Below are positions 3,934 to 45,900 of a stretch of 64,000 nt of DNA, one piece after another. This DNA is from the human T2T-CHM13v2.0 reference genome, Homo sapiens. Numbering within the stretch: position 1 is the stretch's first letter; each line of letters starts with the position of its first letter. The DNA lies in contig CP086569.2 in NCBI GenBank assembly GCA_009914755.4, positions 35,872,001 through 35,936,000 on the forward strand. The letters run 5' to 3'. A program made the position numbers and the translations under genes. Below the pieces are notes generated by a model, which made no database searches, was not told where the DNA came from, and saw only the letters and a list, made by a program, of their open reading frames with translations.

Positions 3934-6900
3934 TGCAATTTAATAAAATAGGATCAAATGTAATGGAATGGAATGGAAAGGAATCGAAACGAAAGGAATG
4001 GAGACAGATGGAATGGAATGGAACAGAGAGCAAAGGTATAGAATGGAATGGAATCATCTGGAATGGAATTGAATGGAATGGAATAATATGAAATGGAATG
4101 GAATGGAATGGAATGCCCTTGAATTAAATGGACTGGAATGGAATGGACTCAAACAGAGTGGAATGGAAAGTGTGGATATAGAATGGAATGAACTCCTTTG
4201 GAATGGTCTAGTAGACAATGCAATCGACTGGCAGGGAATCAAAAGGAATGTAATCGAATGGATTGGACTGGAATGCAATGGACTCGAATAGATTGGAAAC
4301 GGAATGCAAAGGAATGGAATGGAATAGTATGGAATGGTATGGAAAGGAATGGAGTGGAATAGAATAGAGTGGAATGGAATGGACTGGAAAGCAATGGACT
4401 GGAATGGAACATTCTTGAATGGACTGGAATCAAACGGAATGGAATGCAATGCAATCAAATGGCATGGAATAAAATAGAATGAAAGAGAATCAAATGGAAT
4501 TGAATCGAATGGAATCGAATGGATTGGAAAGGAATAGAATGGAATGGAATGGAATTGACTCAAATGGAATGGACTAGAATGGAATGGATTCGAATGGAAG
4601 GCAAAGGAATGGAATCTATTGGAATGGACTGTAATGGAATGGAATGGAAGGGATTGGAATGGACTCGAATGGAATGGACTGCAATAGAAAGGATTCGAAT
4701 GGAATGAAAAAGAATTGAATGGAATAGAACAGAATGGAATCAAATCGAATGAAATGGAATGGAATAGAAAGGAATGGAATGAAATGGAATGGAAAGGATT
4801 CGAATGGAATGCAATCGAATGGAATGGAATCGAACGGAATGGAATAAAATGGAAGAAAACTGGCAAGAAATGGAATCGAAATGAATGGAGTGTTATGGAA
4901 CGGACTCAAAAGGAATTGAATGTAATAGAATGGAGTGGAGTGGACTCGAATATAATGGACTGGAATGGAATGAAATCACATGGAATGGGAACGAATGGAA
5001 TGGAATGGAAAGGAATGGAATCGAATGGAAAGGAATCGAATGGAAGGGAATGAAATTGAATCAACAGGAATGGAAGGGAATAGAATAGACGGTAATGGAA
5101 TGGACTCGAATAGAATGGACACGAATGCTCAAATTGAATGGACTCGAATGGAATGGAAACGAAAGGAATGTCATCGAATGGAATTGAATCGATTGGAATG
5201 AAATCGCATAGAATGGAGTGGAATCAAATGGAATTGAATCGAAAGGAAAGGAAGCGAATGGACTGAAATGAAATGGAATGGAATTGAATGGAAAGTAATG
5301 CAATGGAATAGAATGGAACGAAATTTCACGGAATAGAATCAAACTGAATGGAATCAAATCAATGGAATCTAATCAAATGGAATGGAAAGGAATTGAATGG
5401 AGTAGATTGGATTGGATGGGATTGGAATGAAATGTACTGGAAAGGACTCGAATTTCATGAAACGGAATGGAATGAATTGGAACGGAATGGACTCGAATGG
5501 AATGGAATGTCATGGAATGGCATCAAATGGAATGGCATCAAATGGAATGGAATCGAATGCAATGGAATGCTATGGAATGGAATTGAATGCATTGGAATGG
5601 AATGTCCTCTAATGGAATGGATTCGAGTGGAATGGAATCGAATATAATGGAGTCGATTGAAATGGAATTGAAAGGAATGGGATCGAATACAATGGAATAT
5701 ACTGGAATGTAATGTAATGAACTTGAATGTAATTGACTGGAATGTAATGTACATGAATGGAATGTAATCGAATGGAAAGTAATCCAATGGAATAGAATCT
5801 AATGCAATAAAATCGACTCAGATAGAGTAGAATGTAATGGAATGGAGTGCAGTGCAATGGAATGGAATGGAATGGAATGCAATGGAATGGAATGGAATGG
5901 AATGGAATGGAATGGTGTGGAATGGATAGTAATGGACTGGAGTGAAATGGACTGGAAATGAATGGACTCAAATTGAAAGGGCTCGAAAGGAATGGAGTCA
6001 AATGGAATGGTCTGGAATGGAATGAACACGAATGTAATGCAATCCAATAGAATGGAATCGAATGGCATGGAATATAAAGAAATGGAATCGAAGAGAATGG
6101 AAACAAATGGAATGGAATTGAATGGAATGGAATTGAATGGAATGGGAACGAATGGAGTGAAATTGTATGCAGTAGAAGAGAATAGAATGGAATGCAAGCG
6201 AAAGGAAAGGAATGGATTGGAATGGAATGGAATTCATTGGAATGGAAGGGAATGTAGTGTAATGGACAGGCCTGTAATAAAGTGGAATGCTACGGTCTCG
6301 AATGGAATAAAAATGTATGGAATGGAATGCAATGAAACGGAATCGAATGTCATAGAATGTAATGGAATGCAAAAAAATGGAATCCAAAATCATTGACTGG
6401 AAAGGCTGGATGTCGAAAGGAATTGACTCCAATGGAATGGAATCGAATGGAATGGAAGTGAATAGAATCGAACTAAATCGAATGGAATGGAATTGATAGG
6501 AACGGAATGGAAAGGAATGCAATGATTTGGCATGGAATGGAAACGAATGGTATCTAATGGAATGGAATGTAATGTAATGGAATGGAATGTATTAGAATGT
6601 AATGAACTTTAATGGAATGTACTCGAATGGATTCGACTGGAATGGAATGTTCTGGAAGTGAATGGACTCCAATGGAATGGATTCAAACGGAATGGAATCG
6701 TACGGAATGGAATCTAATGGAATGGAATTAAATGGAAATGAATCAAATTGAATAGCACGGAATTGAATTGAATGGAATGGAATGCAATGGAATCTAATGA
6801 AACGGAAAGGAAAGGAATGGAATGGAATGGAATGGGCTGGAATGGAAAGGAATCGAAACGAATGGAATGGAATCGAACTGAAGAGACTGGAATGGAATGC

Positions 6901-7472
6901 ACTGGAATGGAAGGGAGTGTAATGGAAGGTTCTCGAAAAAAATGGAATCGAATGGAATGGAATTGAATGGAACGGAATAGAGTCGAATGGAATTGAATGG
7001 AATGGAATGGACTAGAGTGAAATGGAATCGAACCACAAGGAATGGACAGGAATAGAATGGTCTCGAATTGAATGGAATCGTATGGAATGGCATCAAACGG
7101 AATGGAATGGACAGCCACGGAATGGAATGCACTCGAATGCAATGGAGTCGAAACTAATGGACTGGAATAGAATGGACTCGACTGGTACGGACTCCAATGG
7201 AATGGAATCGAATGGAAGGGAATCGAACGGAATGGACTCGAAGGGAAAAAACTGCAATGGAAAGGTCTCGAATGGAATGGAAATTAATGGAATGGAATGG
7301 AATCGAATGAAATGGAGTCAAAAGGAATGGAATCGAATGGCAAGAAATCGAATGTAATGGAATCGCAAGGAATTGATGTGAACGGAACGGAATGGAATGG
7401 AATCCAAAGGAATGGAATAGAATGGAATGGAATCGAATGGAAAGGACTCGAATGGAAATCACTCGAATAGAA
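3934..7472 (+). repeat. HOR unit 2, 3539 bp
   Basis: Anchor at 3934 and 7473. The ORF set is colinear with unit 1. GGCC at ~6270. Island triplet ggctgGATgtcg at ~6406. Confidence 0.8.
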
Positions 7473-10400
7473 TGCAATTTAATAAAATAGGGTCAAATGT
7501 AATGGAATGGAATGGAAAGGAATCGAAACGAAAGGAATGGAGACAGATGGAATGGAATGGAACAGAGAGCAATGGTATAGAATGGAATGGAATCATCTGG
7601 AATGGAATTGAATGGAATGGAATAATATGAAATGGAATGGAATGGAATGGAATGGAATGCCCTTGAATTAAATGGACTGGAATGGAATGGACTCGAACAG
7701 AGTGGAATGGAAAGTGTTGAGATAGAATGGAATGGACTCCTTTGGAATGGTGTAGTATGCAATGCAATCGACTGGCAGGGAATCAAAAGGAATGTAATGG
7801 AATGGATTGGACTGGAATGCAATGGACTCGAATAGATTGGAAACGGAATGCAAAGGAATGGAATGGAATAGTATGGAATGGAATGGAAAGGAATGGAGTG
7901 GAATAGACTAGAGTGGAATGGAATGGACTGGAAAGCAATGGACTGGAATGGAACTTTCTTGAATGGACTGGAATCAAACGGAATGGAATGCAATGCAATC
8001 AAATGGCATAGAATAAGATAGAATGAAAGAGAATCAAATGGAATTGAATGGAATGGAATCGAATGGATTGGAAAGGAATAGAATGGAATGGAATGGAATT
8101 GACTCAAATGGAATGGACTAGAATGGAATGGATTCGAATGGAAGGCAAAGGAATGGAATCTATTGGAATGGACTGTAATGGAATGCAATGGAAGGGATTG
8201 GAATGGACTCGAATGGAATGGACTGCAATAGAAAGGATACGAATGGAATGAAAAAGAATTGAATGGAATAGAACAGAATGGAAACAAATCGAATGAAATG
8301 GAATGGAATAGAAAGGAATGGAATGAAATGGAATGGAAAGGATTCGAATGGAATGCAAACGAATGGAATGGAATCGAACGGAATGGAATAAAATGGAAGA
8401 AAACTGGCAAGAAATGGAATCGAAATGAATGGAGTGTTATGGAAGGGACTCAAAAGGAATTGAATGTAATAGAATGGAGTGGAGTGGACTCGAATATAAT
8501 GGACTTGAATGGAATGAAATCACATGGAATGGGAACGAATGGAATGGAATGGAAAGGAATGGAATCGAATGGAAAGGAATCGAATGGAAGGGAATGAAAT
8601 TGAACCAACAGGAATGGAAGGGAATAGAATAGACGGTAATGGAATGGACTCGAATAGAATGGACACGAATGCTCAAATTGAATGGACTCGAATGGAATGG
8701 AAACGAAAGGAATGTCATCGAATGGAATTGAATCGATTGGAATGAAATCGCATAGAATGGAGTGGAATCAAATGGAATTGAATCGAAAGGAAAGGAAGCG
8801 AATGGACTGAAATGAAATGGAATGGAATTGAATGGAAAGTAATGCAATGGAATAGAATGGAACGAAATTTCACGGAATGGAATCAAACTGAATGGAATCA
8901 AATCAATGGAATCTAATCAAATGGAATGGAAAGGAATTGAATGGAGTAGATTGGATTGGATGGGATTGGAATGAAATGTACTGGAAAGGACTCGAATTTC
9001 ATGAAACGGAATGGAATGAATTGGAACGGAATGGACTCGAATGGAATGGAATGTCATGGAATGGCATCAAATGGAATGGCATCAAATGGAATGGAATCGA
9101 ATGCAATGGAATGCTATCGAATGGAATGGAATGCATTGGAATGGAATGTCCTCTAATGGAATGGATTCGAGTGGAATGGAATCGAATATAATGGAGTCGA
9201 ATGAAATGGAATTGAAAAGAATGGGATCGAATACAATGGAATATACTGGAATGTAATGTAATGAACTCGAATGTAATTGACTGGAATGGAATGTATATGA
9301 ATGGAATGTAATCGAATGGAAAGTAATCCAATGGAATAGAATCTAATGCAATAAAATCGACTCAGATAGAGTAGAATGTAATGGAATGGAGTGCAGTGCA
9401 ATGGAATGGAATGGAATGGAATGCAATGGAATGGAATGGAATGGGATGGAATGGTATGGAATGGATAGTAATGGACTGGAGTGAAATGGACTGGAAAGGA
9501 ATGGACTCAAATTGAAAGGGCTCGAAAGGAATGGAGACAAATGGTATGGTCTGGAATGGAATGAACACGAATGTAATGCAATCCAATAGAATAGAGTCGA
9601 ATGGCATGGAATATAAAGAAATGGAATCGAAGAGAATAGAAACAAATGGAATGGAATTGAATGGAATGGAATTGAGTGGAATGGGAACGAATGGAGTGAA
9701 ATTGTATGCAGTAGAAGAGAATAGAATGGAATGCAAGCGAAAGGAAAGGAATGGATTGGAATGGAATGGAATTCATTGGAATGGAAGGGAATGTAGTGTA
9801 ATGGACAGGCCTGGAATAAAGTGGAATGCTACGGTCTCGAGTGGAATAAAAATGTATGGATTGGAATGCAATGAAACGGAATCGAATGTCATAGAATGTA
9901 ATGGAATGCAAAAAAATGGAATCCGAAATCATTGACTGGAAAGGCTGGGTGTCGAAAGGAATTGACTCCAATGGAATGGAATCGAATGGAATGGAAGTGA
10001 ATAGAATCGAACTAAATCGAATGGAATGGAATTGATAGGAACGGAATGGAAAGGAATGCAATGATTTGGCATGGAATGGAATCGAATGGCATCGAATGGA
10101 ATGGAATGGAATGCAATGGAATGGAATGTATTAGAATGTAATGAACTTTAATGGAATGTACTCGAAAGGATTTGACTGGAATGGAATGTTCTGGAAGTGA
10201 ATGGACTCCAATGGAATGGATTCGAAAGGAATGGAATCGTACGGAATGGAATCTAATGGAATGGAATTAAATGGAAATGAATCAAATTGAATAGCACGGA
10301 ATTGAATTGAATGGAATGGAATGCAATGGAATCTAATGAAACGGAAAGGAAAGGAATGCAATGGAATGGAATGGGCTGGAATGGAAAGGAATCGAAACGA

Positions 10401-11011
10401 ATGGAATGGAATCGAACTGAAGAGACTGGAATGGAATGCACTGGAATGGAAGGGAGTGTAATGGAAGGTTCTCGAAAAAAATGGAATCGAATGGAATGGA
10501 ATTGAGTGGAACGGAATAGAGTCGAATGGAATTGAATGGAATGGAATGGACTAGAGTGAAATGGAATCGAACCACAAGGAATGGACAGGAATAGAATGGT
10601 CTCGAATTGAATGGAATCGTATGGAATGGCATCAAACGGAATGGAATGGACAGCCACGGAATGGAATGCACTCGAATGCAATGGAGTCGAAACTAATGGA
10701 CTGGAATAGAATGGACTCGACTGGTACGGACTCCAATGGAATGGAATCGAATGGAAGGGAATCGAACGGAATGGACTCAAAGGGAAAAGACTGCAATGGA
10801 ACGGTCTCGAATGGAATGGAAATTAATGGAATGGAATGGAATCGAATGAAATGGAGTCAAAAGGAATGGAATCGAATGGCAAGAAATCGAATGTAATGGA
10901 ATCGCAAGGAATTGATATGAACGGAACGGAATGGAATGGAATCCAAAGGAATGGAATAGAATGGAATGGAATCGAATGGAAAGGACTCGAATGGAAATCA
11001 CTCGAATAGAA
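7473..11011 (+). repeat. HOR unit 3, 3539 bp
   Basis: Anchor at 7473 and 11012. GGCC at ~9809. Island triplet ggctgGGTgtcg at ~9946. Confidence 0.8.
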
Positions 11012-14000
11012 TGCAATTTAATAAAATAGGATCAAATGTAATGGAATGGAATGGAAAGGAATCGAAACGAAAGGAATGGAGACAGATGGAATGGAATGGA
11101 ACAGATAGCAATGGTATACAATGGAATGGAATCATCTGGAATGGAATTGAATGGAATGCAATAATATGAAATGGAATGGAATGGAATGGAATGGAATGCC
11201 CTTGAATTAAATGGACTGGACTCGAACAGAGTGGAATGGAAAGTGTTGAGATAGAATGGAATGGACTCCTTTGGAATGGTCTAGTATGCAATGCAATCGA
11301 CTGGCAGGGAATCAAAAGGAATGTAATGGAATGGATTGGACTGGAATGCAATGGACTCGAATAGATTGGAAACGGAATGCAAAGGAATGGAATGGAATAG
11401 TATGGAATGGAATGGAAAGGAATGGAGTGGAATAGACTAGAGTGGAATGGAATGGACTGGAAAGCAATGGACTGGAATGAAACTTTCTTGAATGGACTGG
11501 AATCAAACGGAATGGAATGCAATGCAATCAAATGGCATGGAATAAGATAGAATGAAAGAGAATCAAATGGAATTGAATCGAATGGAATCGAACGGATTGG
11601 AAAGGAAGAGAATGGAATGGAATGGAATTGACTCAAATGGAATGGACTAGAATGGAATGGATTCGAATGGAAGGCAAAGGAATGGAATCTATTGGAATGG
11701 ACTGTAATGGAATGGAATGGAAGGGATTGGAATGGACTCGAATGGAATGGACTGCAATAGAAAGGATTCGAATGGAATGAAAAAGAATTGAATGGAATAG
11801 AACAGAATGGAATCAAATCGAATGAAATGGAATGGAATAGAAAGGAATGGAATGAAATGGAATGGAAAGGATTCGAATGGAATGTAATCGAATGGAATGG
11901 AATCGAACGGAATGGAATAAAATGGAAGAAAACTGGCAAGAAATGGAATCGAAATGAATGGAGTGTTATGGAACGGACTCAAAAGGAATTGAATGTAATA
12001 GAATGGAGTGGAGTGGACTCGAATATAATGGACTGGAATGGAATGAAATCACATGGAATGGGAACGAATGGAATGGAATGGAAAGGAATGGAATCGAATG
12101 GAAAGGAATCGAACGGAAGGGAATGAAATTGAATCAACAGGAATGGAAGGGAATAGAATAGACTGTAATGGAATGGACACGAATAGAATGGACACGAATG
12201 CTCAAATTGAATGGACTCGAATGGAATGGAAAGGAAAGGAAAGTCATCGAATGGAATTGAATCGATTGGAATGAAATCGCATAGAATGGAGTGGAATCAA
12301 ATGGAATTGAATCGAAAGGAAAGGAAGCGAATGGACTGAAATGAAATGGAATGGAATTGAATGGAAAGTAATGCAATGGAATAGAATGGAACGAAATTTC
12401 ACGGAATGGAATCAAACTGAATGGAATCAAATCAATGGAATATAATCAAATGGAATGGAAAGGAATTGAATGGAGTAGATTGGATTGGATGGGATTGGAA
12501 TGAAATGTACTGGAAAGGAATCGAATTTCATGAAACGGAATGGAATGAATTAGAACGGAATGGACTCGAATGGAATGGAATGTCATGGAATGGCATCAAA
12601 TGGAATGGAATCGAATGCGATGGAATGCTATGGAATGGAATGGAATGCATTGGAATGGAATGTCCTCTAATGGAATGTATTCGAGTGGAATGGAATCGAA
12701 TATAATGGAGTCTAATGAAATGGAATTGAAAGGAATGGGACCGAATACAATGGAATATACTGGAATGTAATGTAATGAACTCGAATGTAATTGACTGGAA
12801 TGGAATGTACATGAATGGAATGTAATCGAATGGAAAGCAATCCAATGGAATAGAATCTAATGCAATAAAATCGACTCAAATAGAGTAGAATGTAATGGAA
12901 TGGAGTGCAGTGCAATGGAATGGAATGGAATGGAATGCAATGGAATGGAATGGAATGGAATGGAATGGGATGGAATGGTATGGAATGGATAGTAATGGAC
13001 TGGAGTGAAATGGACTGGAAAAGAATGGACTCAAATTGAAAGGGCTCGAAAGGAATGGAGTCAAATGGAATGGTCTGGAATGGAATGAACACGAATGTAA
13101 TGCAATCCAATGGAATGGAATCGAATGGCATGGAATATAAAGAAATGGAATCGAAGAGAATGGAAACAAATGGAATGGAATTGAATGGAATGGAATTGAA
13201 TGGAATGGGAACGAATGGAGTGAAATTGTATGCAGTAGAAGAGAATAGAATGGAATGCAAGCGAAAGGAAAGGAATGGATTGGAATGGAATGGAATTCAT
13301 TGGAATGGAAGGGAATGTAGTGTAATGGACAGGCCTGGAATAAAGTGGAATGCTACGGTCTCGAATGGAATAAAAATGTATGGAATGGAATGCAATGAAA
13401 CGGAATCGAATGTCATAGAATGTAATGGAATGCAAAAAAATGGACTCCAAAATCATTGACTGGAAAGGCTGGGGGTCGAAAGGAATTGACTCCAATGGAA
13501 TGGAATCGAATGGAATGGAAGTGAATAGAATCGAACTAAATCGAATGGAATGGAATTGATAGGAACGGAATGGAAAGGAATGCAATGATTTGGCATGGAA
13601 TGGAATCGAATGGCATCGAATGGAATGGAATGGATTGCAATGGAATGGAATGTATTAGAATGTAATGAACTTTAATGGAATGTACTCGAATGGATTCGAC
13701 TGGAATGGAATGTTCTGGAAGTGAATGGACTCCAATGGAATGGATTCGAAAGGAATGGAATCTAATGGAATGGAATTAAATGGAAATGAATCAAATTGAA
13801 TAGAACGGAATTGAATTGAATGGAATCGAATGCAATGGAATCTAATGAAACGGAAAGGAAAGGAATGGAATGGATTGGAATGGAATGGGCTGGAATGGAA
13901 TGGAATCGAAACGAATGGAATGGAATCGAAATGAAGAGACTGGAATGGAATGCACTGGAATGGAAGGGAATGTAATGGAAGGTTCTCGAAAAAAATGGAA

Positions 14001-14545
14001 TCGAAAGGAATGGAATTGAATGGAACGGAATAGAGTCGAATGGAATTCAATGGAATGGAATGGACTAGAGTGAAATGGAATCGAACCACAAGGAATGGAC
14101 AGGAATAGAATGGTCTCGAATTGAATGGAATCGTATGGAATGGCATCAAACGGAATGGAATGGACAGCCACGGAATGGAATGGACACCCACGGAATGGAA
14201 TGCACTCGAATGCAATGGAGTCGACACTAATGGACTGGAATAGAATGGACTCGACTGGTACGGAGTCCAATGGAATGGAATCGAATGGAAGGGAATCGAA
14301 CGGAATGGACTCGAAGTGAAAAGACTGCAATGGAAAGGTCTCCAATGGAATGGAAATTAATGGAATGGAATGGAATCGAATGAAATGGAGTCAAAAGGAA
14401 TGGAATCGAATGGCAAGAAATCGAATGTAATGGAATCGCAAGGAATGGATGTGAACGGAACGGAATGGAATGGAATCCAAAGGAATGGAATAGAATGGAA
14501 TGGAATCGAATGGAAAGGACTTGAATGGAAATCACTCGAATAGAA
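11012..14545 (+). repeat. HOR unit 4, 3534 bp. Subtype carrying a 10-bp deletion and a 20-bp tandem duplication.
   Basis: Anchor at 11012 and 14546. 10-bp deletion at ~11219: atggactgga|ctcgaacag lacks the atggaatgga present at 7671-7690 in unit 3. 20-bp near-perfect tandem duplication at 14161-14200: tggacagccacggaatggaa followed by tggacacccacggaatggaa. Island triplet ggctgGGGgtcg at ~13467. Confidence 0.8.
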
Positions 14546-17500: not shown

Positions 17501-18069
17501 GGAATGCACTGGAATGGAAGGGAATGTAATGGAAGGTTCTCGAAAAAAATGGAATCGAAAGGAATGGAATTGAATGGAACGGAATAGAGTCGAATGGAAT
17601 TCAATGGAATGGAATGGACTAGAGTGAAATGGAATCGAACCACAAGGAATGGACAGGAATAGAATGGTCTCGAACTGAATGGAATCGTATGGAATGGCAT
17701 CAAACGGAATGGAATGGACAGCAACGGAATGGAATGCACTCGAATGCAATGGAGTCGACACTAATGGACTGGAATAGAATGGACTCGACTGGTACGGACT
17801 CCAATGGAATGGAATCGAATGGAAGGGAATCGAACGGAATGGACTCGAAGGGAAAAGACTGCAATGGAAAGGTCTCGAATGGAATGGAAATTAATGGAAT
17901 GGAATGGAATCGAATGAAATGGAGTCAAAAGGAATGGAATCGAATGGCAAGAAATCGAATGTAATGGAATCGCAAGGAATTGATGTGAACGGAACGGAAT
18001 GGAATGGAATCGAAAGGGATGGAATGGAATCGAATGGAAAGGACTCGAATGGAAATCACTCGAATAGAA
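14546..18069 (+). repeat. HOR unit 5, 3524 bp
   Basis: Anchor at 14546 and 18070 (variant tgcaatttaatacaatagg at 18070). GGCC at ~16886. Confidence 0.8.
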
Positions 18070-21000: not shown

Positions 21001-21613
21001 GAATGGAATGGAGTCGAACTGAAGAGACTGAAATGGAATGCACTGGAATGGAAGGGAGTGTAATGGAAGGTTCTCGAAAAAAATGGAATCGAAAGGAATG
21101 GAATTGAATGGAACGGAATAGAGTCGAATGGAATTCAATGGAATGGAATGGACTAGAGTGAAATGGAATCGAACCACAAGGAATGGACAGGAACAGAATG
21201 GTCTCGAATTGAATGGAATCGAATGGAATGGCATCAAACGGCATGGAATGGACAGCAACGGAATGGAATGCACTCGAATGCAATGGAGTCGACACTAATG
21301 GACTGGAATAGAATGGACTCGACTGGTACGGACTCCATTGAAATGGAATTGAATGGAAGGGAATGGAACGGAATGGACTCGAAGGGAAAAGACTGCAATG
21401 TAAAGGTCTCGAATGGAATGGAAATTAATGGAATGGAATGGAATCGAATGAAATGGAGTCAAAAGGAATGGAATCGAATGGCAAGAAATCGAATGTAATG
21501 GAATCACAAGGAATTGATGTGAACGGAACGGAATCGAATGGAATCCAAAGGAATGGAATAGAATGGAATGGAATCGAATGGAAAGGACTCGAATGGAAAT
21601 CACTCGAATAGAA
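18070..21613 (+). repeat. HOR unit 6, 3544 bp
   Basis: Anchor at 18070 and 21614. ORFs colinear with other units. Marker variant gacagcAacgg at ~17711. Confidence 0.8.
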
Positions 21614-31700: not shown

Positions 31701-32308
31701 GGAATGGAATCGAACTGAAGAGACTGGAATGGAATGCACTGGAATGGAAGGGAGTGTAATGGAAGGTTCTCGAAAAAAATGGAATCGAATGGAATGGAAT
31801 TGAATGGAACGGAATAGAGTCGAATGGAATTGAATGGAATGGAATGGACTAGAGTGAAATGGAATCGAACCACAAGGAATGGACAGGAATAGAATGGTCT
31901 CGAATTGAATGGAATCATATGGAATGGCATCAAACGGAATGGAATGGACAGCCACGGAATGGAATGCACTCGAATGCAATGGAGTCGAAACTAATGGATG
32001 GAATAGAATGGACTTGACTGGTACGGACTCCAATGGAATGGAATCGAATGGAAGGGAATCGAACGGAATGGACTCGAAGGGAAAAGACTGCAATGGAAAG
32101 GTCTCCAATGGAATGGAAATTAATGGAATGGAATGGAATCGAATGAAATGGAGTCAAAAGGAATGGAATCGAATGGCAAGAAATCGAATGTAATGGAATC
32201 GCAAGGAATTGATGTGAACGGAACGGAATGGAATGGAATCCAAAGGAATGGAATAGAATGGAATGGAATCGAATGGAAAGGACACGAATGGAAATCACTC
32301 GAATAGAA
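28762..32308 (+). repeat. HOR unit 9, 3547 bp. Its 5' ~1.9 kb is identical to unit 8; it then switches to another subtype.
   Basis: Anchor at 28762 and 32309. Identity with the -3574 copy ends near 30.7 kb: ORF 30467..30820 versus 26893..27405 diverge at the N-terminal end. Island triplet ggctgGATgtcg at ~31244, the same state as unit 2. Confidence 0.8.
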
Positions 32309-35300: not shown

Positions 35301-35847
35301 AAGGTTCTCGAAAAAAATGGAATCGAATGGAATGGAATTGAGTGGAACGGAATAGAGTCGAATGGAATTGAATGGAATGGAATGGACTAGAGTGAAATGG
35401 AATCGAACCACAAGGAATGGACAGGAATAGAATGGTCTCGAACTGAATGGAATCGTATGGAATGGCATCAAACGGAATGGAATGGACAGCCACGGAATGG
35501 AATGCACTCGAATGCAATGGAGTCGAAACTAATGGACTGGAATAGAATGGACTCGACTGGTACGGACTCCAATGGAATGGAATCGAATGGAAGGGAATCG
35601 AACGGAATGGACTCAAAGGGAAAAGACTGCAATGGAACGGTCTCGAATGGAATGGAAATTAATGGAATGGAATGGAATCGAATGAAATGGAGTCAAAAGG
35701 AATGGAATCGAATGGCAAGAAATCGAATGTAATGGAATCGCAAGGAATTGATATGAACGGAACGGAATGGAATGGAATCCAAAGGAATGGAATAGAATGG
35801 AATGGAATCGAATGGAAAGGACTCGAATGGAAATCACTCGAATAGAA
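32309..35847 (+). repeat. HOR unit 10, 3539 bp, near-identical to unit 3
   Basis: Anchor at 32309 and 35848. ORFs 32329..33246, 33273..33737, 34343..34897 and 35089..35616 match 7493..8410, 8437..8901, 9507..10061 and 10253..10780 at a constant offset of 24836. Confidence 0.85.
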
Positions 35848-38800
35848 TGCAATTTAATAAAATAGGATCAAATGTAATGGAATGGAATGGAAAGGAATCG
35901 AAACGAAAGGAATGGAGACAGATGGAATGGAATGGAACAGATAGCAATGGTATACAATGGAATGGAATCATCTGGAATGGAATTGAATGGAATGCAATAA
36001 TATGAAATGGAATGGAATGGAATGGAATGGAATGCCCTTGAATTAAATGGACTGGACTCGAACAGAGTGGAATGGAAAGTGTTGAGATAGAATGGAATGG
36101 ACTCCTTTGGAATGGTCTAGTATGCAATGCAATCGACTGGCAGGGAATCAAAAGGAATGTAATGGAATGGATTGGACTGGAATGCAATGGACTCGAATAG
36201 ATTGGAAACGGAATGCAAAGGAATGGAATGGAATAGTATGGAATGGAATGGAAAGGAATGGAGTGGAATAGACTAGAGTGGAATGGAATGGACTGGAAAG
36301 CAATGGACTGGAATGAAACTTTCTTGAATGGACTGGAATCAAACGGAATGGAATGCAATGCAATCAAATGGCATGGAATAAGATAGAATGAAAGAGAATC
36401 AAATGGAATTGAATCGAATGGAATCGAATGGATTGGAAAGGAATAGAATGGAATGGAATGGAATTGACTCAAATGGAATGGACTAGAATGGAATGGATTC
36501 CAATGGAAGGCAAAGGAATGGAATCTATTGGAATGGACTGTAATGGAATGGAATGGAAGGGATTGGAATGGACTCGAATGGAATGGACTGCAATAGAAAG
36601 GATTCGAATGGAATGAAAAAGAATTGAATGGAATAGAACAGAATGGAATCAAATCGAATGAAATGGAATGGAATAGAAAGGAATGGAATGAAATGGAATG
36701 GAAAGGATTCGAATGGAATGGAATCGAATGGAATGGAATCGAACGGAATGGAATAAAATGGAAGAAAACTGGCAAGAAATGGAATCGAAATGAATGGAGT
36801 GTTATGGAACGGACTCAAAAGGAATTGAATGTAATAGAATGGAGTGGAGTGGACTCGAATATAATGGACTGGAATGGAATGAAATCACATGGAATGGGAA
36901 CGAATGGAATGGAATGGAAAGGAATGGAATCGAATGGAAAGGAATCGAACGGAAGGGAATGAAATTGAATCAACAGGAATGGAAGGGAATAGAATAGACT
37001 GTAATGGAATGGACACGAATAGAATGGACACGAATGCTCAAATTGAATGGACTCGAATGGAATGGAAAGGAAAAGAAAGTCATCGAATGGAATTGAATCG
37101 ATTGGAATGAAATCGCATAGAATGGAGTGGAATCAAATGGAATTGAATCGAAAGGAAAGGAAGCGAATGGACTGAAATGAAATGGAATGGAATTGAATGG
37201 AAAGTAATGCAATGGAATAGAATGGAACGAAATTTCACGGAATGGAATCAAACTGAATGGAATCAAATCAATGGAATATAATCAAATGGAATGGAAAGGA
37301 ATTGAATGGAGTAGATTGGATTGGATGGGATTGGAATGAAATGTACTGGAAAGGACTCGAATTTCATGAAACGGAATGGAATGAATTAGAACGGAATGGA
37401 CTCGAATGGAATGGAATGTCATGGAATGGCATCAAATGGAATGGAATCGAATGCGATGGAATGCTATGGAATGGAATGGAATGCATTGGAATGGAATGTC
37501 CTCTAATGGAATGTATTCGAGTGGAATGGAATCGAATATAATGGAGTCTAATGAAATGGAATTGAAAGGAATGGGACCGAATACAATGGAATATACTGGA
37601 ATGTAATGTAATGAACTCGAATGTAATTGACTGGAATGGAATGTACATGAATGGAATGTAATCGAATGGAAAGCAATCCAATGGAATAGAATCTAATGCA
37701 ATAAAATCGACTCAAATAGAGTAGAATGTAATGGAATGGAGTGCAGTGCAATGGAATGGAATGGAATGGAATGCAATGGAATGGAATGGAATGGAATGGA
37801 ATGGGATGGAATGGTATGGAATGGATAGTAATGGACTGGAGTGAAATGGACTGGAAAAGAATGGACTCAAATTGAAAGGGCTCGAAAGGAATGGAGTCAA
37901 ATGGAATGGTCTGGAATGGAATGAACACGAATGTAATGCAATCCAATGGAATGGAATCGAATGGCATGGAATATAAAGAAATGGAATCGAAGAGAATGGA
38001 AACAAATGGAATGGAATTGAATGGAATGGAATTGAATGGAATGGGAACGAATGGAGTGAAATTGTATGCAGTAGAAGAGAATAGAATGGAATGCAAGCGA
38101 AAGGAAAGGAATGGATTGGAATGGAATGGAATTCATTGGAATGGAAGGGAATGTAGTGTAATGGACAGGCCTGGAATAAAGTGGAATGCTACGGTCTCGA
38201 ATGGAATAAAAATGTATGGAATGGAATGCAATGAAACGGAATCGAATGTCATAGAATGTAATGGAATGCAAAAAAATGGACTCCAAAATCATTGACTGGA
38301 AAGGCTGGGGGTCGAAAGGAATTGACTCCAATGGAATGGAATCGAATGGAATGGAAGTGAATAGAATCGAACTAAATCGAATGGAATGGAATTGATAGGA
38401 ACGGAATGGAAAGGAATGCAATGATTTGGCATGGAATGGAATCGAATGGCATCGAATGGAATGGAATGGATTGCAATGGAATGGAATGTATTAGAATGTA
38501 ATGAACTTTAATGGAATGTACTCGAATGGATTCGACTGGAATGGAATGTTCAGGAAGTGAATGGACTCCAATGGAATGGATTCGAAAGGAATGGAATCTA
38601 ATGGAATGGAATTAAATGGAAATGAATCAAATTGAATAGAACGGAATTGAATTGAATGGAATCGAATGCAATGGAATCTAATGAAACGGAAAGGAAAGGA
38701 ATGGAATGGATTGGAATGGAATGGGCTGGAATGGAATGGAATCGAAACGAATGGAATGGAATCGAACTGAAGAGACTGGAATGGAATGCACTGGAATGGA

Positions 38801-39381
38801 AGGGAATGTAATGGAAGGTTCTCGAAAAAAATGGAATCGAAAGGAATGGAATTGAATGGAACGGAATAGAGTCGAATGGAATTCAATGGAATGGAATGGA
38901 CTAGAGTGAAATGGAATCGAACCACAAGGAATGGACAGGAATAGAATGGTCTCGAATTGAATGGAATCGTATGGAATGGCATCAAACGGAATGGAATGGA
39001 CAGCCACGGAATGGAATGGACACCCACGGAATGGAATGCACTCGAATGCAATGGAGTCGACACTAATGGACTGGAATAGAATGGACTCGACTGGTACGGA
39101 GTCCAATGGAATGGAATCGAATGGAAGGGAATCGAACGGAATGGACTCGAAGTGAAAAGACTGCAATGGAAAGGTCTCCAATGGAATGGAAATTAATGGA
39201 ATGGAATGGAATCGAATGAAATGGAGTCAAAAGGAATGGAATCGAATGGCAAGAAATCGAATGTAATGGAATCGCAAGGAATGGATGTGAACGGAACGGA
39301 ATGGAATGGAATCCAAAGGAATGGAATAGAATGGAATGGAATCGAATGGAAAGGACTCGAATGGAAATCACTCGAATAGAA
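35848..39381 (+). repeat. HOR unit 11, 3534 bp, same subtype as unit 4
   Basis: Anchor at 35848 and 39382. Shares with unit 4 the 10-bp deletion (~36055, atggactggactcgaacag), the 20-bp tandem duplication (~38997-39036) and the island triplet GGG (~38295). The 313-aa ORF 35834..36775 corresponds to 10998..11939 at offset 24836. Confidence 0.85.
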
Positions 39382-42300
39382 TGCAATTTAATAAAATAGG
39401 ATCAAATGTAATGGAATGGAATGGAAAGGAATAGAAATGAAAGGAATGGAGACAGATGGAATGGAATGGAACAGAGAACAATGGTATAGAATGGAATGGA
39501 ATAATCTGGAATGGAATTGAATGGAATGGAATAATATGAAATGGAATGGAATGGAATGGAATGCCCTTGAATTAAATGGACTGGAATGGAATGGACTCGA
39601 ACAGAGTGGAATGGAAAGTGTTGAAATAGAATGGAATGGACTCGTTTGGAATGGTCTAGTATGCAATGCAATCGACTGGCAGGGAATCAAAAGGAATGTA
39701 ATCGAATGGATTGGACTGGAATGCAATGGACTCGAATAGATTGGAAACGGAAAGCAAAGGAATGGAATGGAATAGTATGGAATGGAATGGAAAGGAATGG
39801 AGTGGAATAGACTAGAGTGGAATGGAATGGACTCGAAAGCAATGGACTGGAATGGAACTTTCTTGAATGGACTGGAATCAAACGGAATGGAATGCAATGC
39901 AATCAAATGGCATGGAATAAAATAGAATGAAAGAGAATCAAATGGAATTGAATCGAATGGAATCGAATGGATTGGAAAGGAATAGAATGGAATGGAATGG
40001 AATTGACTCAAATGGAATGGACTAGAATGGAATGGATTCGAATGGAAGGCAAAGGAATGGAATCTATTGGAATGGACTGTAATGGAATGGAATGGAAGGG
40101 ATTGGAATGGACTCGAATGGAATGGACTGCCATAGAAAGGATTCGAATGGAATGAAAAAGAATTGAATGGAATAGAACAGAATGGAATCAAGTCGAATGA
40201 AATGGAATGGAATAGAAAGGAATGGAATGAAATGGAATGGAAAGGATTCGAATGGAATGCAATCGAATGGAATGCAATCGAATGGAATGGAATCGAACGG
40301 AATGGAATAAAATGGAAGAAAACTGGCAAGAAATGGAATCGAAATGAATGGAGTGTTATGGAACGGACTCAAAAGGAATTGAATGTAATAGAATGGAGTG
40401 GAGTGGACTCGAATATAATGGACTGGAATGGAATGAAATCACATGGAATGGGAACGAATGGAATGGAATGGAAAGGAATGGAATCGAATGGAAAGGAATC
40501 GAATGGAAGGGAATGAAATTGAATCAACAGGAATGGAAGGGAGTAGAATAGACGGTAATGGAATGGACTCGAATAGAATGGACACGAATGCTCAAATTGA
40601 ATGGACTCGAATGGAATGGAAACGAAAGGAATGTCATCGAATGGAATTGAATCGATTGGAATGAAATCACATAGAATGGAGTGGAATCAAATGGAATTGA
40701 ATCGAAAGGAAAGGAAGCGAATGGACTGAAATGAAATGGAATGGAATTGAATGGAAATTAATTCAATGGAATAGAATGGAACGAAATTTCACGGAATGGA
40801 ATCAAACTAAATGGAATCAAATCAATGGAATATAATCAAATGGAATGGAAAGGAATTGAATGGAGTAGATTGGATTGGATGGGATTGGAATGAAATGTAC
40901 TGGAAAGGACTCGAATTTCATGAAACGGAATGGAATGAATTAGAACGGAATGGACTCGAATGGAATGGAATGTCATGGAATGGCATCAAATGGAATGGAA
41001 TCGAATGCGATGGAATGCTATGGAATGGAATGGAATGCATTGGAATGGAATGTCCTCTAATGGAATGTATTCGAGTGGAATGGAATCGAATATAATGGAG
41101 TCTAATGAAAGGGAATTGAAAGGAATGGGACCGAATACAACGGAATATACTGGAATGTAATGTAATGAACTCGAATGTAATTGACTGGAATGGAATGTAC
41201 ATGAATGGAATGTAATCGAATGGAAAGCAATCCAATGGAATAGAATCTAATGCAATAAAATCGACTCAAATAGAGTAGAATGTAATGGAATGGAGTGCAG
41301 TGCAATGGAATGGAATGGAATGGAATGCAATGGAATGGAATGGAATGGAATGGAATGGGATGGAATGGTATGGAATGGATAGTAATGGACTGGAGTGAAA
41401 TGGACTGGAAAAGAATGGACTCAAATTGAAAGGTCTCGAAAGGAATGGAGTCAAATGGAATGGTCTGGAATGGAATGAACACGAATGTAATGCAATCCAA
41501 TAGAATGGAATCGAATGGCATGGAATATAAAGAAATGGAATCGAAGAGAATGGAAACAAATGGAATGGAATTGAATGGAATGGAATTGAATGGAATGGGA
41601 ACGAATGGAGTGAAATTGTATGCACTAGAAGAGAATAGAATGGAATGCAAGCGAAAGGAAAGGAATGGATTGGAATGGAATGGAATTCATTGGAATGGAA
41701 GGGAATGTAGTGTAATGGACAGGCCTGGAATAAAGTGGAATGCTACGGTCTCGAATGGAATAAAAATGTATGGAATGGAATGCAATGAAACGGAATCGAA
41801 TGTCATAGAATGTAATGGAATGCAAAAAAATGGACTCCAAAATCATTGACTGGAAAGGCTGGGTGTCGAAAGGAATTGACTCCAATGGAATGGAATCGAA
41901 TGGAATGGAAGTGAATAGAATGGAACTAAATCGAATGGAATGGAATTGATAGGAACGGAATGGAAAGGAATGCAATGATTTGGCATGGAATGGAATCGAA
42001 TGGCATCGAATGGAATGGAATGGAATGCAATGGAATGGAATGTATTAGAATGTAATGAACTTTAATGGAATATACTCGAATGGATTCGACTGGAATGGAA
42101 TGTTCTGGAAGTGAATGGACTCCAATTGAATGGATTCGAAAGGAATGGAATCTAATGGAATGGAATTAAATGGAAATGAATCAAATTGAATAGAACGGAA
42201 TTGAATTGAATGGAATCGAATGCAATGGAATCTAATGAAACGGAAAGGAAAGGAATGGAATGGATTGGAATGGAATGGGCTGGAATGGAATGGAATCGAA

Positions 42301-42905
42301 ACGAATGGAATGGAATCGAACTGAAGAGACTGGAATGGAATGCACTGGAATGGAAGGGAATGTAATGGAAGGTTCTCGAAAAAAATGGAATCGAAAGGAA
42401 TGGAATTGAATGGAACGGAATAGAGTCGAATGGAATTCAATGGAATGGAATGGACTAGAGTGAAATGGAATCGAACCACAAGGAATGGACAGGAATAGAA
42501 TGGTCTCGAATTGAATGGAATCGTATGGAATGGCATCAAACGGAATGGAATGGACAGCCACGGAATGGAATGCACTCGAATGCAATGGAGTCGACACTAA
42601 TGGACTGGAATAGAATGGACTCGACTGGTACGGACTCCAATGGAATGGAATCGAATGGAAGGGAATCGAACGGAATGGACTCGAAGGGAAAAGACTGCAA
42701 TGGAAAGGTCTCGAATGGAATGGAAATTAATGGAATGGAATGGAATCGAATGAAATGGAGTCAAAAGGAATGGAATCGAATGGCAAGAAATTGAATGTAA
42801 TGGAATCGCAAGGAATTGATGTGAACGGAACGGAATGGAATGGAATCGAAAGGGATGGAATGGAATCGAATGGAAAGGACTCGAATGGAAATCACTCGAA
42901 TAGAA
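39382..42905 (+). repeat. HOR unit 12, 3524 bp, near-identical to unit 5
   Basis: Anchor at 39382 and 42906. ORFs 41102..41650 and 42045..42575 match 16266..16814 and 17209..17739 at offset 24836. Confidence 0.85.
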
Positions 42906-45900
42906 TGCAATTTAATAAAATAGGATCAAATGTAATGGAATGGAATGGAAAGGAATCGAAACGAAAGGAATGGAGACAGATGGAATGGAATGGAACAGAG
43001 AGCAATGGTATAGAATGGAATGGAATCATCTGGAATGGAATTGAATGGAATGGAATAATATGAAATGGAATGGAATGGAATGGAATGCCCTTGAATTAAA
43101 TGGACTGGAATGGAATGGACTCAAACAGAGTGGAATGGAAAGTGTTGAAATAGAATGGAATGGACTCGTTTGGAATGGTCTAGTATGCAATGCAATCGAC
43201 TGGCAGGGAATCAAGAGGAATGTAATCGAATGGATTGGACTGGAATGCAATGGACTCGAATAGATTGGAAACGGAATTCAAAGGAATGGAATGGAATAGT
43301 ATGGAATGGAATGGAAAGGAATGGAGTGGAATAGACTAGAGTGGAATGGAATGGACTCGAAAGCAATGGACTGGAATGGAACTTTCTTGAATGGACTGGA
43401 ATCAAACGGAATGGAATGCAATGCAATCAAATGGCATGGAATAAAATAGAATGAAAGAGAATCAAATGGAATTGAATCGAATGGAATCGAATGGATTGGA
43501 AAGGAATAGAATGGAATGGAATGGAATTGACTCAAATGGAATGGACTAGAATGGAATGGATTCGAATGGAAGGCAAAGGAATGGAATCTATTGGAATGGA
43601 CTGTAATGGAATGGAATGGAAGGGATTGGAATGGACTCGAATGGAATGGACTGCAATAGAAAGGATTCGAATGGAATGAAAAAGAATTGAATGGAATAGA
43701 ACAGAATGGAATCAAATCGAATGAAATGGAATGGAATAGAAAGGAATGGAATGAAATGGAATGGAAAGGATTCGAATGGAATGCAATCGAATGGAATGGA
43801 ATCGAACGGAATGGAATAAAATGGAAGAAAACTGGCAAGAAATGGAATCGAAATGAATGGAGTGTTATGGAACGGACTCAAAAGGAATTGAATGTAATAG
43901 AATGGAGTGGAGTGGACTCGAATATAATGGACTGGAATGGAATGAAATCACATGGAATGGGAACGAATGGAATGGAATGGAAAGGAATAGAATCGAATGG
44001 AAAGGAATCGAATGGAAGGGAATGAAATTGAATCAACAGGAATGGAAGGGAATAGAATAGACGGTAATGGAATGGACTCGAATAGAATGGACACGAATGC
44101 TCAAATTGAATGGACTCGAATGGAATGGAAACGAAAGGAATGTCATCGAATGGAATTGAATCGATTGGAATGAAATCGCATAGAATGGAGTGGAATCAAA
44201 TGGAATTGAATCGAAAGGAAAGGAAGCCAATGGACTGAAATGAAATGGAATGGAATGGAATGGAAAGTAATGCAATGGAATAGAATGGAACGAAATTTCA
44301 CGGAATGGAATGAAACTGAATGGAATCAAATCAATGGAATCTAATCAAGTGGAATGGAAAGGAATTGAATGGAGTAGATTGGATTGGATGGGATTGGAAT
44401 GAAATGTACTGGAAAGGACTCGAATTTCATGAAACGGAATGGAATGAATTGGAACGGAATGGACTCGAATGGAATGGAATGTCATGGAATGGCATCAAAT
44501 GGAATGGCATCAAATGGAATGGAATCGAATGCAATTGAATGCTATGGAATGGAATGGAATGCATTGGAATGGAATGTTCTCTAATGGAATGGATTCGAGT
44601 GGAATGGAATCGAATATAATGGAGTCGAATGAAATGGAATTGAAAGGAATGGGATCGAATACAATGGAATATACTGGAATGTAATGTAATGAACTTGAAT
44701 GTAATTGACTGGAATGGAATGTACATGAATGGAATGTAATCGAATGGAAAGTAATCCAATGGAATAGAATCTAATGCAATAAAATCGACTCAGATAGAGT
44801 AGAATGTAATGGAATGGAGTGCAGTGCAATGGAATGGAATGGAATGGAATGCAATGGAATGGAATGGAATGGAATGGAATGGAATGGAATGGAATGGAAT
44901 GGTGTGGAATGGATACTAATGGACTGGAGTGAAATGGACTGGAAATGAATGGACTCAAATTGAAAGGGCTCGAAAGGAATGGAGTCAAATGGAATGGTCT
45001 GGAATGGAATGAACACGAATGTAATGCAATCCAATAGAATGGAATCGAATGGCATGGAATATAAAGAAATGGAATCGAAGAGAATGGAAATAAATGGAAT
45101 GGAATTGAATGGAATGGAATTGAATGGAATGGGAACGAATGGAGTGAAATTGTATGCAGTAGAAGAGAATAGAATGGAATGCAAGCCAAAGGAAAGGAAT
45201 GGATTGGAATGGAATGGAATTCATTGGAATGGAAGGGAATGTAGTGTAATGGACAGGCCTGGAATAAAGTGGAATGCTACGGTCTCGAATGGAATAAAAA
45301 TGTATGGAATGGAATGCAATGAAACGGAATCGAATGTCATAGAATGTAATGGAATGCAAAAAAATGGAATCCAAAATCATTGACTGGAAAGGCTGGATGT
45401 CGAAAGGAATTGACTCCAATGGAATGGAATCGAATGGAATGGAAGTGAATAGAATCGAACTAAATCGAATGGAATGGAATTGATAGGAACGGAATGGAAA
45501 GGAATGCAATGATTTGGCATGGAATGGAAACGAATGGTATCTAATGGAATGGAATGGAATGTAATGGAATGGAATGTATTAGAATGTAATGAACTTTAAT
45601 GGAATGTACTCGAATGGATTCGACTGGAATGGAATGTTCTGGAAGTGAATGGACTCCAATGGAATGGATTGAAACGGAATGGAATCGTACGGAATGGAAT
45701 CTAATGGAATGGAATTAAATGGAAATGAATCAAATTGAATAGAACGGAATTGAATTGAATGGAATGGAATGCAATGGAATCTAATGAAACGGAAAGGAAA
45801 GGAATGGAATGGAATGGAATGGGCTGGAATGGAAAGGAATCGAAACGAATGGAATGGAATCGAACTGAAGAGACTGGAATGGAATGCACTGGAATGGAAG

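What the first reader, a model, noticed from the sequence alone, without database searches (positions are those of the whole stretch)
5900..45550. A 7-unit (~24,836 bp) super-repeat sits above the 3.55 kb HOR
Two blocks of ~14.8 kb, at 5.9-20.7 kb and 30.8-45.5 kb, are colinear at a constant offset of 24,836 bp with almost no indels. They share unit-subtype markers in the same order. Island triplet states: GAT (units 2 and 9), GGT (3 and 10), GGG plus 10-bp deletion plus 20-bp duplication (4 and 11), GGT (5 and 12), and so on. Cyclic unit-length pattern: 3539, 3534, 3524, 35xx. This shows that arrays of this satellite expand by unequal exchange of multi-unit blocks, with 7 units ≈ 24.8 kb, and not only by single-unit exchange. 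The graded identity, highest at 7.4-17.8 kb and lower toward 18-20.7 kb, indicates that the duplication boundary has been eroded by later conversion events.
Basis: seen in the sequence. Interest (0 to 1): 0.55.

Follow-up and report, generated by a model that had tools for sequence, protein, structure and literature searches.

The report
One-off 12-kb copy inside Y satellite
This is human Y-chromosome DYZ1 satellite in which about 12 kb (3.4 repeat units) has been copied once to a spot now seven units away, which is an ordinary by-product of recombination inside satellite arrays and not a regular seven-unit super-repeat.

Summary
The window is 18 units of a 3.55-kb, (GGAAT)n-derived satellite. 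Every testable feature fits human DYZ1/HSat3A6 of Yq12.

The 24,836-bp offset is real and is the strongest single-offset k-mer peak.
- **Related by descent:** only ~5.9/6.0-18.0/18.1 kb and 30.8-42.9 kb (~12 kb, 3.4 units).
- **Core:** 7,753-18,018 vs 32,589-42,854 differs at 26 of 10,266 sites (0.25%) with no indels. The background between units is about 2.1%.
- **Shoulder:** 6.0-7.75 kb is 0.7% diverged and belongs to an older three-copy layer.
- **Not related:** 18.1-20.8 kb is at background divergence (2.3-2.6%). It only shares length states.

Both ends of copy 2 are sharp recombinant junctions, at 30,771-30,878 and 42,855-42,917. The flanks of the two copies are unrelated. There is no third copy at +49.7 kb, and only 3.4 of the 7 units are shared.

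The D-type units lying between the copies were amplified later (u7 vs u8: one difference). The original spacing was therefore probably 5-6 units.

Other registers (1, 4 and 11 units) also occur in the window. This is a two-copy intra-array duplication or conversion, a known kind of satellite turnover, and not a 7-unit higher-order repeat.

The parts
1..64000 (+). Uninterrupted head-to-tail array of 18 units (about 3,509-3,574 bp) of a GGAAT-derived satellite with the purine-rich strand on +. Identified as human DYZ1/HSat3A6.
   Evidence: TRF consensus (GGAAT)n. Unit anchors. One HaeIII site per unit. GC 38.6% and CpG 1 per 35.7 bp. No inverted repeats.
5918..18081 (+). Copy 1 of the duplicated block (outer limits), with unit types B-A-C-C'. 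Its end units are intact types, so it looks like the donor.
   Evidence: Mismatch lists and marker painting.
30771..42917 (+). Copy 2 of the duplicated block (outer limits). Its first and last units are hybrids: u9 is D then B, and u12 is C' then D then E.
7753..18018 (+). Young core of copy 1. Against 32,589-42,854 it has 26 substitutions and 0 indels in 10,266 bp (0.25%).
   Evidence: Ungapped fixed-offset comparison. 20 of the 26 differences are private singletons.
32589..42854 (+). Young core of copy 2.
6027..7752 (+). Left shoulder of copy 1 (pairs with 30,879-32,588). It is 0.70% diverged with two indel events. Here u2, u9 and u13 are equidistant, so this is the older layer.
   Evidence: 12, 16 and 12 substitutions for the three pairs..
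30771..30878 (+). Left recombinant junction of copy 2. D-type markers (identical to u8) run up to 30,770 and B-type markers start at 30,879.
   Evidence: Coordinates.
42855..42917 (+). Right recombinant junction of copy 2. The last C'-specific markers, including the private 10-bp deletion, end at 42,854. The first mismatch to copy 1 is at 42,918.
42855..43662 (+). 808-bp stretch in u12 exactly identical to D units u7 and u8. D-diagnostic markers run to 43,358 and E-type sequence starts at 43,663. It is either a remnant of a D-type recipient or a later short conversion patch.
   Evidence: Exact matches at offsets 17,718 and 14,144. Markers.
19989..30770 (+). Run of three D-type periods of 3,574 bp lying between the two copies. 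u7 vs u8 differ at 1 site. This run is younger than the block duplication.
4400..12500 (+). Older-layer block alpha (E-tail + B + A, approximate limits). It is 0.7-1% from block beta at 43.4-51.5 kb.
   Evidence: Offset-11 diagonal. Three-way counts. Painting.
43360..51500 (+). Older-layer block beta (E-tail + B + A, approximate limits). It also pairs with u9-u10 at a 4-unit offset.

Best explanation
The window is human Yq12 DYZ1 (HSat3A6) satellite. A segment of about 12 kb (3.4 units, types B-A-C-C') is present twice in it, now 24,836 bp (7 units) apart.

What the sequence shows directly:
- Copy 2 is bounded by two sharp hybrid junctions that keep the unit phase.
- The sequences flanking the two copies are unrelated.
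- The inner 10.3 kb is 0.25% diverged, mostly by private point changes in both copies.

What is inferred:
- The copy arose by homologous recombination between sister chromatids, or within one chromatid, misaligned by a whole number of units.
- Most likely this was a non-reciprocal long-tract transfer (gene conversion or double exchange) from the B-A-C-C' run. The recipient stretch lay next to D-type units and already carried an older B-A paralogue.
- Later, the D unit between the copies was amplified in single-unit steps, and short conversion patches were laid down.

The array therefore turns over by exchanges in many registers (1, 4, 7 and 11 units here). Seven is an incidental spacing, not a period. 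The satellite has no known coding or RNA function, and none is implied here.
For: Identity as DYZ1:
- Pentamer consensus.
- 3.52-3.57-kb HaeIII fragments, one site per unit.
- GC 38.6% and 1 CpG per 35.7 bp. Hallast et al. report 38% and 1 per 35 bp for DYZ1.
- DYZ1 sexing primers recalled from memory hit once per unit and give a 154-bp product.
- The same satellite at 97-99% identity occurs in 33 metagenome contigs, one of them labelled human gut.

Two-copy block:
- Identity matrix, fixed-offset scan and difference lists.
- Rank tests against all 136 unit pairs.
- Exact 400-mer matches.

Sharp junctions and hybrid end units.

Not periodic and not tandem:
- u6-u8 vs u13-u15 are 97.1-97.3%, and u3/u17 and u10/u17 are 98.2%.
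- The diagonal map shows one run at offset 7 only.

Layering:
- For A units the relation is ((u3,u10),u14): 9 vs 24 and 26 differences.
- The B shoulder is star-like: 12, 16 and 12 differences.
- The shoulder is denser in differences than the core (P=0.002).

Later D amplification: u7/u8 differ at 1 site where 9 are expected (P=0.0012).

Literature:
- Unequal exchange and sister-chromatid exchange in Yq12 (Rhie et al.).
- A high de novo mutation rate in Yq12, with 29% of changes conversion-like, and whole-unit de novo structural variants (Porubsky et al., PMC12240836).
Against: - A 12-kb non-reciprocal tract is long for classical gene conversion. The data fit a tandem unequal exchange followed by deletions or overwriting about as well.
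- The D-type flanks of copy 2 are identical to u7/u8 (0 differences in about 1.6 kb). They cannot simply be old remnants of a recipient array and need later homogenisation.
- The polarity (copy 1 as donor) rests only on which copy has hybrid end units.
- Sequence upstream of the window is unseen, so a further copy at -24.8 kb cannot be excluded.
- The species and locus assignment could not be tested against a reference sequence.
Confidence: 0.8

Rival explanations
1. This is a tandem duplication by a single unequal sister-chromatid exchange (or out-of-register break-induced replication) in a 5-7-unit misregister. Later deletions and conversions removed or overwrote the other 40-50% of the duplicated segment.
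For: - The D-to-B junction at 30,771-30,878 is the kind of single in-phase hybrid junction an unequal exchange makes.
- Unequal exchange and sister-chromatid exchanges are documented for Yq12.
- Whole-unit de novo gains and losses occur about once per transmission in DYZ2.
Against: - After copy 2 the model predicts a copy of the u5 tail, u6 and D units. What is found is an 808-bp D stretch, then E-tail, B, A, E, E, E.
- u6-u8 vs u13-u15 are the most divergent pairs in the window.
- At least two further in-phase events are needed to reach the observed state.
- The two-step left boundary needs yet another event.
Confidence: 0.3
2. This is a genuine 7-unit (24.8-kb) second-order higher-order repeat of DYZ1 that continues outside the window. 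The window shows two partly eroded periods of it.
For: - 24,836 is the largest single-offset peak.
- The older layer and the young core both link u2-u3 with u9-u10. The same register may therefore have been used twice.
Against: - Only 3.4 of 7 units are shared.
- There is no third copy downstream: u10/u17 are 98.2%.
- The type string E B A C C' D D D B A C C' B A E E E has equally good partial matches at lags 4 and 11.
- The spacing was changed by the later D amplification.
- Published descriptions give 3.5-3.6 kb as the DYZ1 unit and predominant repeat; no 24.8-kb period was found in the passages read.
Confidence: 0.05
3. This is an assembly artefact: a false duplication or mis-join in a hard-to-assemble satellite.
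For: - Yq12 is among the hardest regions to assemble.
- u7/u8 are nearly identical.
Against: - The two copies differ at 26 well-spread sites, private changes occur in both, and each has its own distinct flanks. A false duplication would be identical.
- The junctions keep the unit phase exactly.
Confidence: 0.03

Closest known systems
DYZ1 / HSat3A6, the 3.5-3.6-kb HaeIII satellite of human Yq12 (Nakahori 1986 from memory; Hallast 2023 and Rhie 2023; Warburton 2008)
   Same: It is derived from the pentamer CATTC/GGAAT. Units are about 3.55 kb with one HaeIII site each. GC is 38% and CpG density is 1 per 35 bp. Units are about 98% identical. The array is head-to-tail in one orientation.
   Different: Nothing differs at the family level. 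The window simply shows the fine-scale subtype mosaic that the papers read here do not describe unit by unit.
Recent iterative tandem duplications in Yq12 attributed to unequal exchange (Rhie et al. 2023, Extended Data Fig. 8)
   Same: Multi-unit blocks of satellite are duplicated within the same chromosome. They are seen as off-diagonal lines in exact-match dot plots.
   Different: Those events reach 5 Mb, span whole DYZ1/DYZ2 blocks and are tandem or iterative. This one is 12 kb, has two copies, and is not a simple tandem duplicate because its flanks are unrelated.
Interlocus gene conversion within DYZ1/DYZ2 (Porubsky et al. 2025, PMC12240836; 2026 preprint PMC13252187)
   Same: Sequence is transferred non-reciprocally between non-orthologous units of the same array. 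Of the 26 differences in the core, 6 carry states seen in other units, against 29% of de novo changes reported as conversion-like.
   Different: The reported events are single variants or short clusters. The transfer proposed here would be 10-12 kb.
Short-range homogenisation domains and multi-HOR variant blocks in alpha-satellite arrays, and Smith's unequal-crossover model (from memory; Smith 1976 is listed in the reference list seen)
   Same: Neighbouring repeat units are more alike than distant ones. Blocks of several units are duplicated locally. Hybrid units mark the exchange points.
   Different: The satellite family is different (HSat3, not alpha satellite), the chromosome is haploid and non-recombining, and there is no centromere function.

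Membership tests
Human DYZ1 / HSat3A6 satellite | Built from diverged tandem pentamers (CATTC)n = (GGAAT)n | tested here: met
   TRF consensus units are GGAAT multiples across the tested 12 kb. Base composition is A 40%, G 30%, T 21%, C 8%.
Human DYZ1 / HSat3A6 satellite | Nested repeat unit of about 3.5-3.6 kb released by HaeIII (one GGCC per unit) | tested here: met
   There are 18 GGCC sites and 17 fragments of 3,524-3,574 bp. Hallast et al. use the same digest, with a modal fragment of 3,569 bp.
Human DYZ1 / HSat3A6 satellite | GC about 38% and about 1 CpG per 35 bp | tested here: met
   38.6% GC and 1 CpG per 35.7 bp, against the published values.
Human DYZ1 / HSat3A6 satellite | Sequence match to a published DYZ1 consensus or reference | not testable with these tools
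   No human reference is held. Indirect support: sexing primers recalled from memory match once per unit with a 154-bp product, but no paper holding them was found. 33 metagenome contigs, one labelled human gut, match at up to 99%.
Human DYZ1 / HSat3A6 satellite | Location on Yq12 and male specificity | not testable with these tools
   The origin of the window is not given.
Second-order higher-order repeat (7-unit super-HOR) | Three or more successive copies at a constant period | tested here: not met
   Two copies only. u3/u17 and u10/u17 are 98.2%, which is background. There is one run on the offset-7 diagonal and none at offset 14. Upstream sequence is unseen.
Second-order higher-order repeat (7-unit super-HOR) | The whole period is conserved between copies | tested here: not met
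   Only 3.4 of 7 units are shared. u6-u8 vs u13-u15 are 97.1-97.3%.
Second-order higher-order repeat (7-unit super-HOR) | Identity between periods exceeds identity between units within a period | tested here: inconclusive
   True for u3/u10 and u4/u11 (99.75% vs about 97.9%). Within the 'period', however, u7/u8 are 99.97%.
Simple tandem duplication from one unequal crossover | Duplicated length equals the spacing, with a single hybrid junction | tested here: not met
   The duplicate is about 12 kb and the spacing is 24.8 kb. There are two junctions, and the flanks are unrelated.
Non-reciprocal transfer (long-tract conversion or double exchange) | A patch bounded by two in-phase junctions, with the recipient's flanks unrelated to the donor's flanks | tested here: met
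   The junctions are at 30,771-30,878 and 42,855-42,917. The flanks are D-type on both sides of copy 2, against E/B-type and C'-type around copy 1.
Non-reciprocal transfer (long-tract conversion or double exchange) | No change in array length; the ancestral recipient allele has the same number of units | not testable with these tools
   This needs orthologous arrays from other Y haplotypes.

The most novel reading that the evidence does not exclude
The same 7-unit register may have been used twice. An older duplication placed B-A paralogues at u2-u3 and u9-u10. A younger 10.3-kb conversion then re-homogenised the same two places. If paralogy in this register now biases further mispairing, the window would show the birth of a second-order periodicity in DYZ1, which is the step by which higher-order repeats are thought to arise.
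Probability: 0.06. Interest if true: 0.4.

Novelty: already known. Interest (0 to 1): 0.15.

Why it matters
It matters little beyond description. The window is a clean small-scale example of how a satellite on a non-recombining chromosome turns over: block copying with in-phase hybrid junctions, later single-unit amplification, and short conversion patches.

The two junctions and the private markers could serve as tags. These markers are the GAT and GGG islands, the 20-bp insertion and the 10-bp deletion. With them, this event could be dated and polarised across the Y phylogeny in population assemblies.

The main value of this check is negative. A sharp single-offset k-mer peak in a satellite largely reflects shared indel states. 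It should not be read as a new level of periodicity without a unit-by-unit identity matrix.

Tried and rejected
- **The repeat finder (after two parameter errors):** swamped by pentamer-level similarity. It gave thousands of 300-nt 'copies' at 60-70% and was useless for block structure. It did report zero inverted repeats.
- **Self-megablast:** each diagonal extends as one ~97.8% alignment and is filtered out, so it could not delimit the block.
- **Literature search for the DYZ1 primer sequences:** no paper held contains them. The primer match therefore stays a recollection.
- **Nakahori 1986 (PMC311781):** not held.
- **Metagenome scan:** it returned DYZ1 pieces of 12 kb or less. Three source contigs are 52-55 kb but are only partly held.
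- **Extension of the duplicate to 20.7 kb:** considered and rejected. That stretch is at background divergence.
- **Reading the 46,089 and 49,633 offset peaks as further block copies:** considered and rejected. They come from indel-free alignment of ordinary E-type units at 98.0-98.3%.
- **Dating with a euchromatic mutation rate:** it gives more than 1 Myr. The published Yq12-specific rate was preferred.


Full report
**What the sequence is**

The whole window is one uninterrupted tandem array.
- Tandem Repeats Finder gives GGAAT-multiple consensus units over the 12 kb tested.
- The + strand is strongly purine-rich: A 40%, G 30%, T 21%, C 8%.
- A unit-specific anchor recurs 18 times at 3,509-3,574-bp spacing.
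- GGCC (HaeIII) occurs exactly once per unit and gives fragments of 3,524-3,574 bp.
- GC is 38.6% and there is one CpG per 35.7 bp.

These figures match the published description of human DYZ1/HSat3A6: a unit of about 3.5 kb, pentamer-derived, a HaeIII digest with a modal fragment of 3,569 bp, 38% GC and 1 CpG per 35 bp (Hallast et al.; Rhie et al.; Warburton et al.).

Two further points support the identification.
- Two DYZ1 sexing primers that I recall from memory each hit once per unit and bracket 154 bp. I could not find them in the held literature.
- A 26-mer from the unit is present in 33 metagenome contigs, one labelled human gut. These align to the window at up to 99%.

I could not compare the window with a human reference, so the assignment is very likely but indirect.

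**Checking the observation**

An exact 20-mer offset histogram puts 24,836 bp first: 11,932 matches against 7,481 for 3,574 bp. The total k-mer sharing at 7 units is only about 10% above the other multiples of the unit. The peak therefore reflects, to a large extent, one long stretch with an identical indel pattern.

I cut the array into 17 full units (u1-u17) and aligned them.
- Background identity is 97.0-98.4%.
- u3/u10 are 99.74% and u4/u11 are 99.75%.
- u5/u12 are 99.0% and u2/u9 are 98.7%.
- u7/u8 are 99.97% and u6/u7 are 99.16%.
- u3/u14 are 99.3%, u10/u14 are 99.3% and u2/u13 are 99.0%.

An ungapped scan at the fixed offset and the difference lists show four zones:

| Zone (copy 1 coordinates) | Divergence from the 7-unit partner | Reading |
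|---|---|---|
| 5,105-6,010 | 3.3% | unrelated |
| 6,011-7,752 | 0.70%, plus a 15-bp and a 1-bp indel | older layer ("shoulder") |
| 7,753-18,018 | 26 substitutions, no indel, in 10,266 bp (0.25%) | young core |
| 17,956-20,839 | 2.3-2.6%, no indels | unrelated, colinear only |

The last zone ranks 92 and 112 of 136 unit pairs over the same columns, so it is background or worse. Only 6 of 120 comparable pairs are indel-free there.

With exact matches of 400 bp or more, only three offsets matter:
- 24,836 bp, with 7.65 kb of matches, all within 7,753-17,674.
- 3,574 bp, with 6.9 kb of matches.
- 7,148 bp, with 3.3 kb of matches.

- The island reads GCTG[GAT]GTCG in u2 and u9, but also in u13.
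- It reads GGG only in u4 and u11.
- A 20-bp insertion is private to u4/u11.
- The 10-bp deletion is in u5/u12, not in u4/u11.

**Anatomy of the duplicate**

Marker painting sorts the units into types: E, B, A, C, C', D, D, D, D/B, A, C, C'/D/E, B, A, E, E, E.

Copy 2 has hybrid units at both ends.
- u9 carries every D-type marker (identical to u8) up to 30,770 and B-type markers from 30,879.
- u12 follows u5, including u5's otherwise private 10-bp deletion, up to 42,854.
- u12 is then exactly identical to D units u7 and u8 for 808 bp (42,855-43,662). It is E-like from 43,663.

Copy 1 has intact units at both ends. Both junctions keep the unit phase. The sequences outside the two copies are unrelated on both sides.

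**Why this is not a 7-unit super-repeat**

- Only 3.4 of the 7 units are shared.
- The remaining pairs at this offset (u6-u8 vs u13-u15) are the least similar in the window, at 97.1-97.3%.
- There is no third copy one period further on: u3/u17 and u10/u17 are 98.2%. The diagonal map shows a single run at offset 7 and nothing at offset 14.
- Other registers are present. A three-period run of D units at 3,574 bp lies at 19,989-30,770. An older block (E-tail + B + A) is present at u1-u3 and at u12-u14, and in part at u9-u10, giving spacings of 11, 4 and 7 units at 0.7-1% divergence.
- The spacing itself has changed since the event. u7 and u8 differ at 1 site, where about 9 are expected at the block's divergence (P=0.0012). 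Apart from a 6-difference cluster, u6's D part is equally young. One or two D units were therefore added between the copies after the block was copied, and the original spacing was probably 5-6 units.

**How it most likely arose**

A single unequal sister-chromatid exchange duplicates a length equal to the misregister and leaves one junction. Here the duplicate is half the spacing, has two junctions, and has unrelated flanks. That model needs at least two more in-phase events.

A non-reciprocal transfer (long-tract conversion, or two exchanges in one event) from the B-A-C-C' run needs one event for the core.

The two-step left boundary fits a layered history.
- In the shoulder, u2, u9 and u13 are equidistant: 12, 16 and 12 differences.
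- Further right the relations are ((u2,u9),u13) and ((u3,u10),u14).
- The place of copy 2 therefore already held an older B-A paralogue. The young event re-homogenised 10.3 kb of it.

I put about 0.5 on non-reciprocal transfer and 0.3 on unequal exchange plus later trimming. The rest goes to mixtures of the two. The data in the window cannot separate them.

The 808-bp D stretch at the right end has two possible readings. It is either what is left of a D-type recipient or a later short conversion from u7/u8.

**Post-duplication change**

- Of the 26 core differences, 20 are private to one copy (12 in copy 2, 7 in copy 1, and 1 where both are private). The other 6 carry states seen in other units. 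This is close to the 29% of de novo Yq12 changes reported as conversion-like.
- Seven of the 26 lie at CpG positions, which make up 5.8% of sites (P=5e-4). Transitions to transversions are 11:15.
- With the published Yq12 rate of 3.86e-7 per bp per generation, 0.25% corresponds to roughly 3,300 generations, about 0.1 Myr. The single u7/u8 difference corresponds to a few hundred generations. These are rough inferences that assume a uniform clock.

**Comparison with what is known**

DYZ1 itself, its 3.5-3.6-kb unit, unit identity of about 98%, evolution by unequal exchange, sister-chromatid exchange in Yq12, interlocus conversion and whole-unit de novo changes are all published. Local multi-unit duplicates with hybrid junction units are the expected small-scale footprint of those processes. 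Nothing here lies outside that picture. The finding is a correct sighting of a real local duplicate that was over-interpreted as a new level of periodicity.

Noticed in passing
window 19,989-30,770: There are three consecutive D-type periods of exactly 3,574 bp. u7 and u8 differ at one base (22,842 / 26,416), and the head of u9 is identical to that of u8. This single-unit tandem amplification is younger than the 24.8-kb pair and explains the 3,574 and 7,148 offset peaks.
   Followed up: yes
window ~4,400-12,500, ~43,360-51,500 and 30,879-37,013: An older layer is present in three places: E-tail + B + A at u1-u3 and at u12-u14, and B + A at u9-u10. The copies are 0.7-1% diverged, giving offsets of about 38,972-38,996 and about 14,150. 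The GAT island marker is shared by u2, u9 and u13.
   Followed up: partly
window 21,222-21,506: Six of the seven differences between the D parts of u6 and u7 fall within 285 bp. The rest of about 2.5 kb is nearly identical. This looks like a short conversion patch and not like clock-like mutation.
   Followed up: no
whole window (unit alignment columns listed): Nearly all length differences between units are multiples of 5 bp (5, 10, 15 or 20), as expected from pentamer slippage. The few 1-bp indels are in u9, u13 and u14.
   Followed up: partly
window 7,753-18,018 vs 32,589-42,854: Differences accumulated since the duplication are enriched about five-fold at CpG positions (7 of 26 against 5.8% of sites). 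They have a low transition:transversion ratio (11:15).
   Followed up: partly
window 19,988-20,000 and 30,771-30,878: Two independent type switches lie right next to the longest pure (GGAAT)n run of the unit (alignment columns about 750-950). One is non-D to D in u6 and the other is D to B in u9. That run is also the most length-variable spot. It may be a preferred exchange point, but there are only two cases.
   Followed up: no
window 30,812-30,956: u9 carries three private changes just inside the left junction: a substitution at 30,812, a 1-bp deletion at 30,841 and a 15-bp deletion after 30,956. These may be scars of the recombination event, or chance.
   Followed up: no
loci L001-L033 (e.g. 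L004/L005 from BNJT01001888.1, 55 kb; L033 labelled human gut metagenome): Public metagenome assemblies contain DYZ1 as host contamination, including contigs of 52-55 kb. The 20-bp C-type insertion occurs in two of them (L002, L022). The GAT and GGG island states and the 10-bp deletion occur in none.
   Followed up: partly
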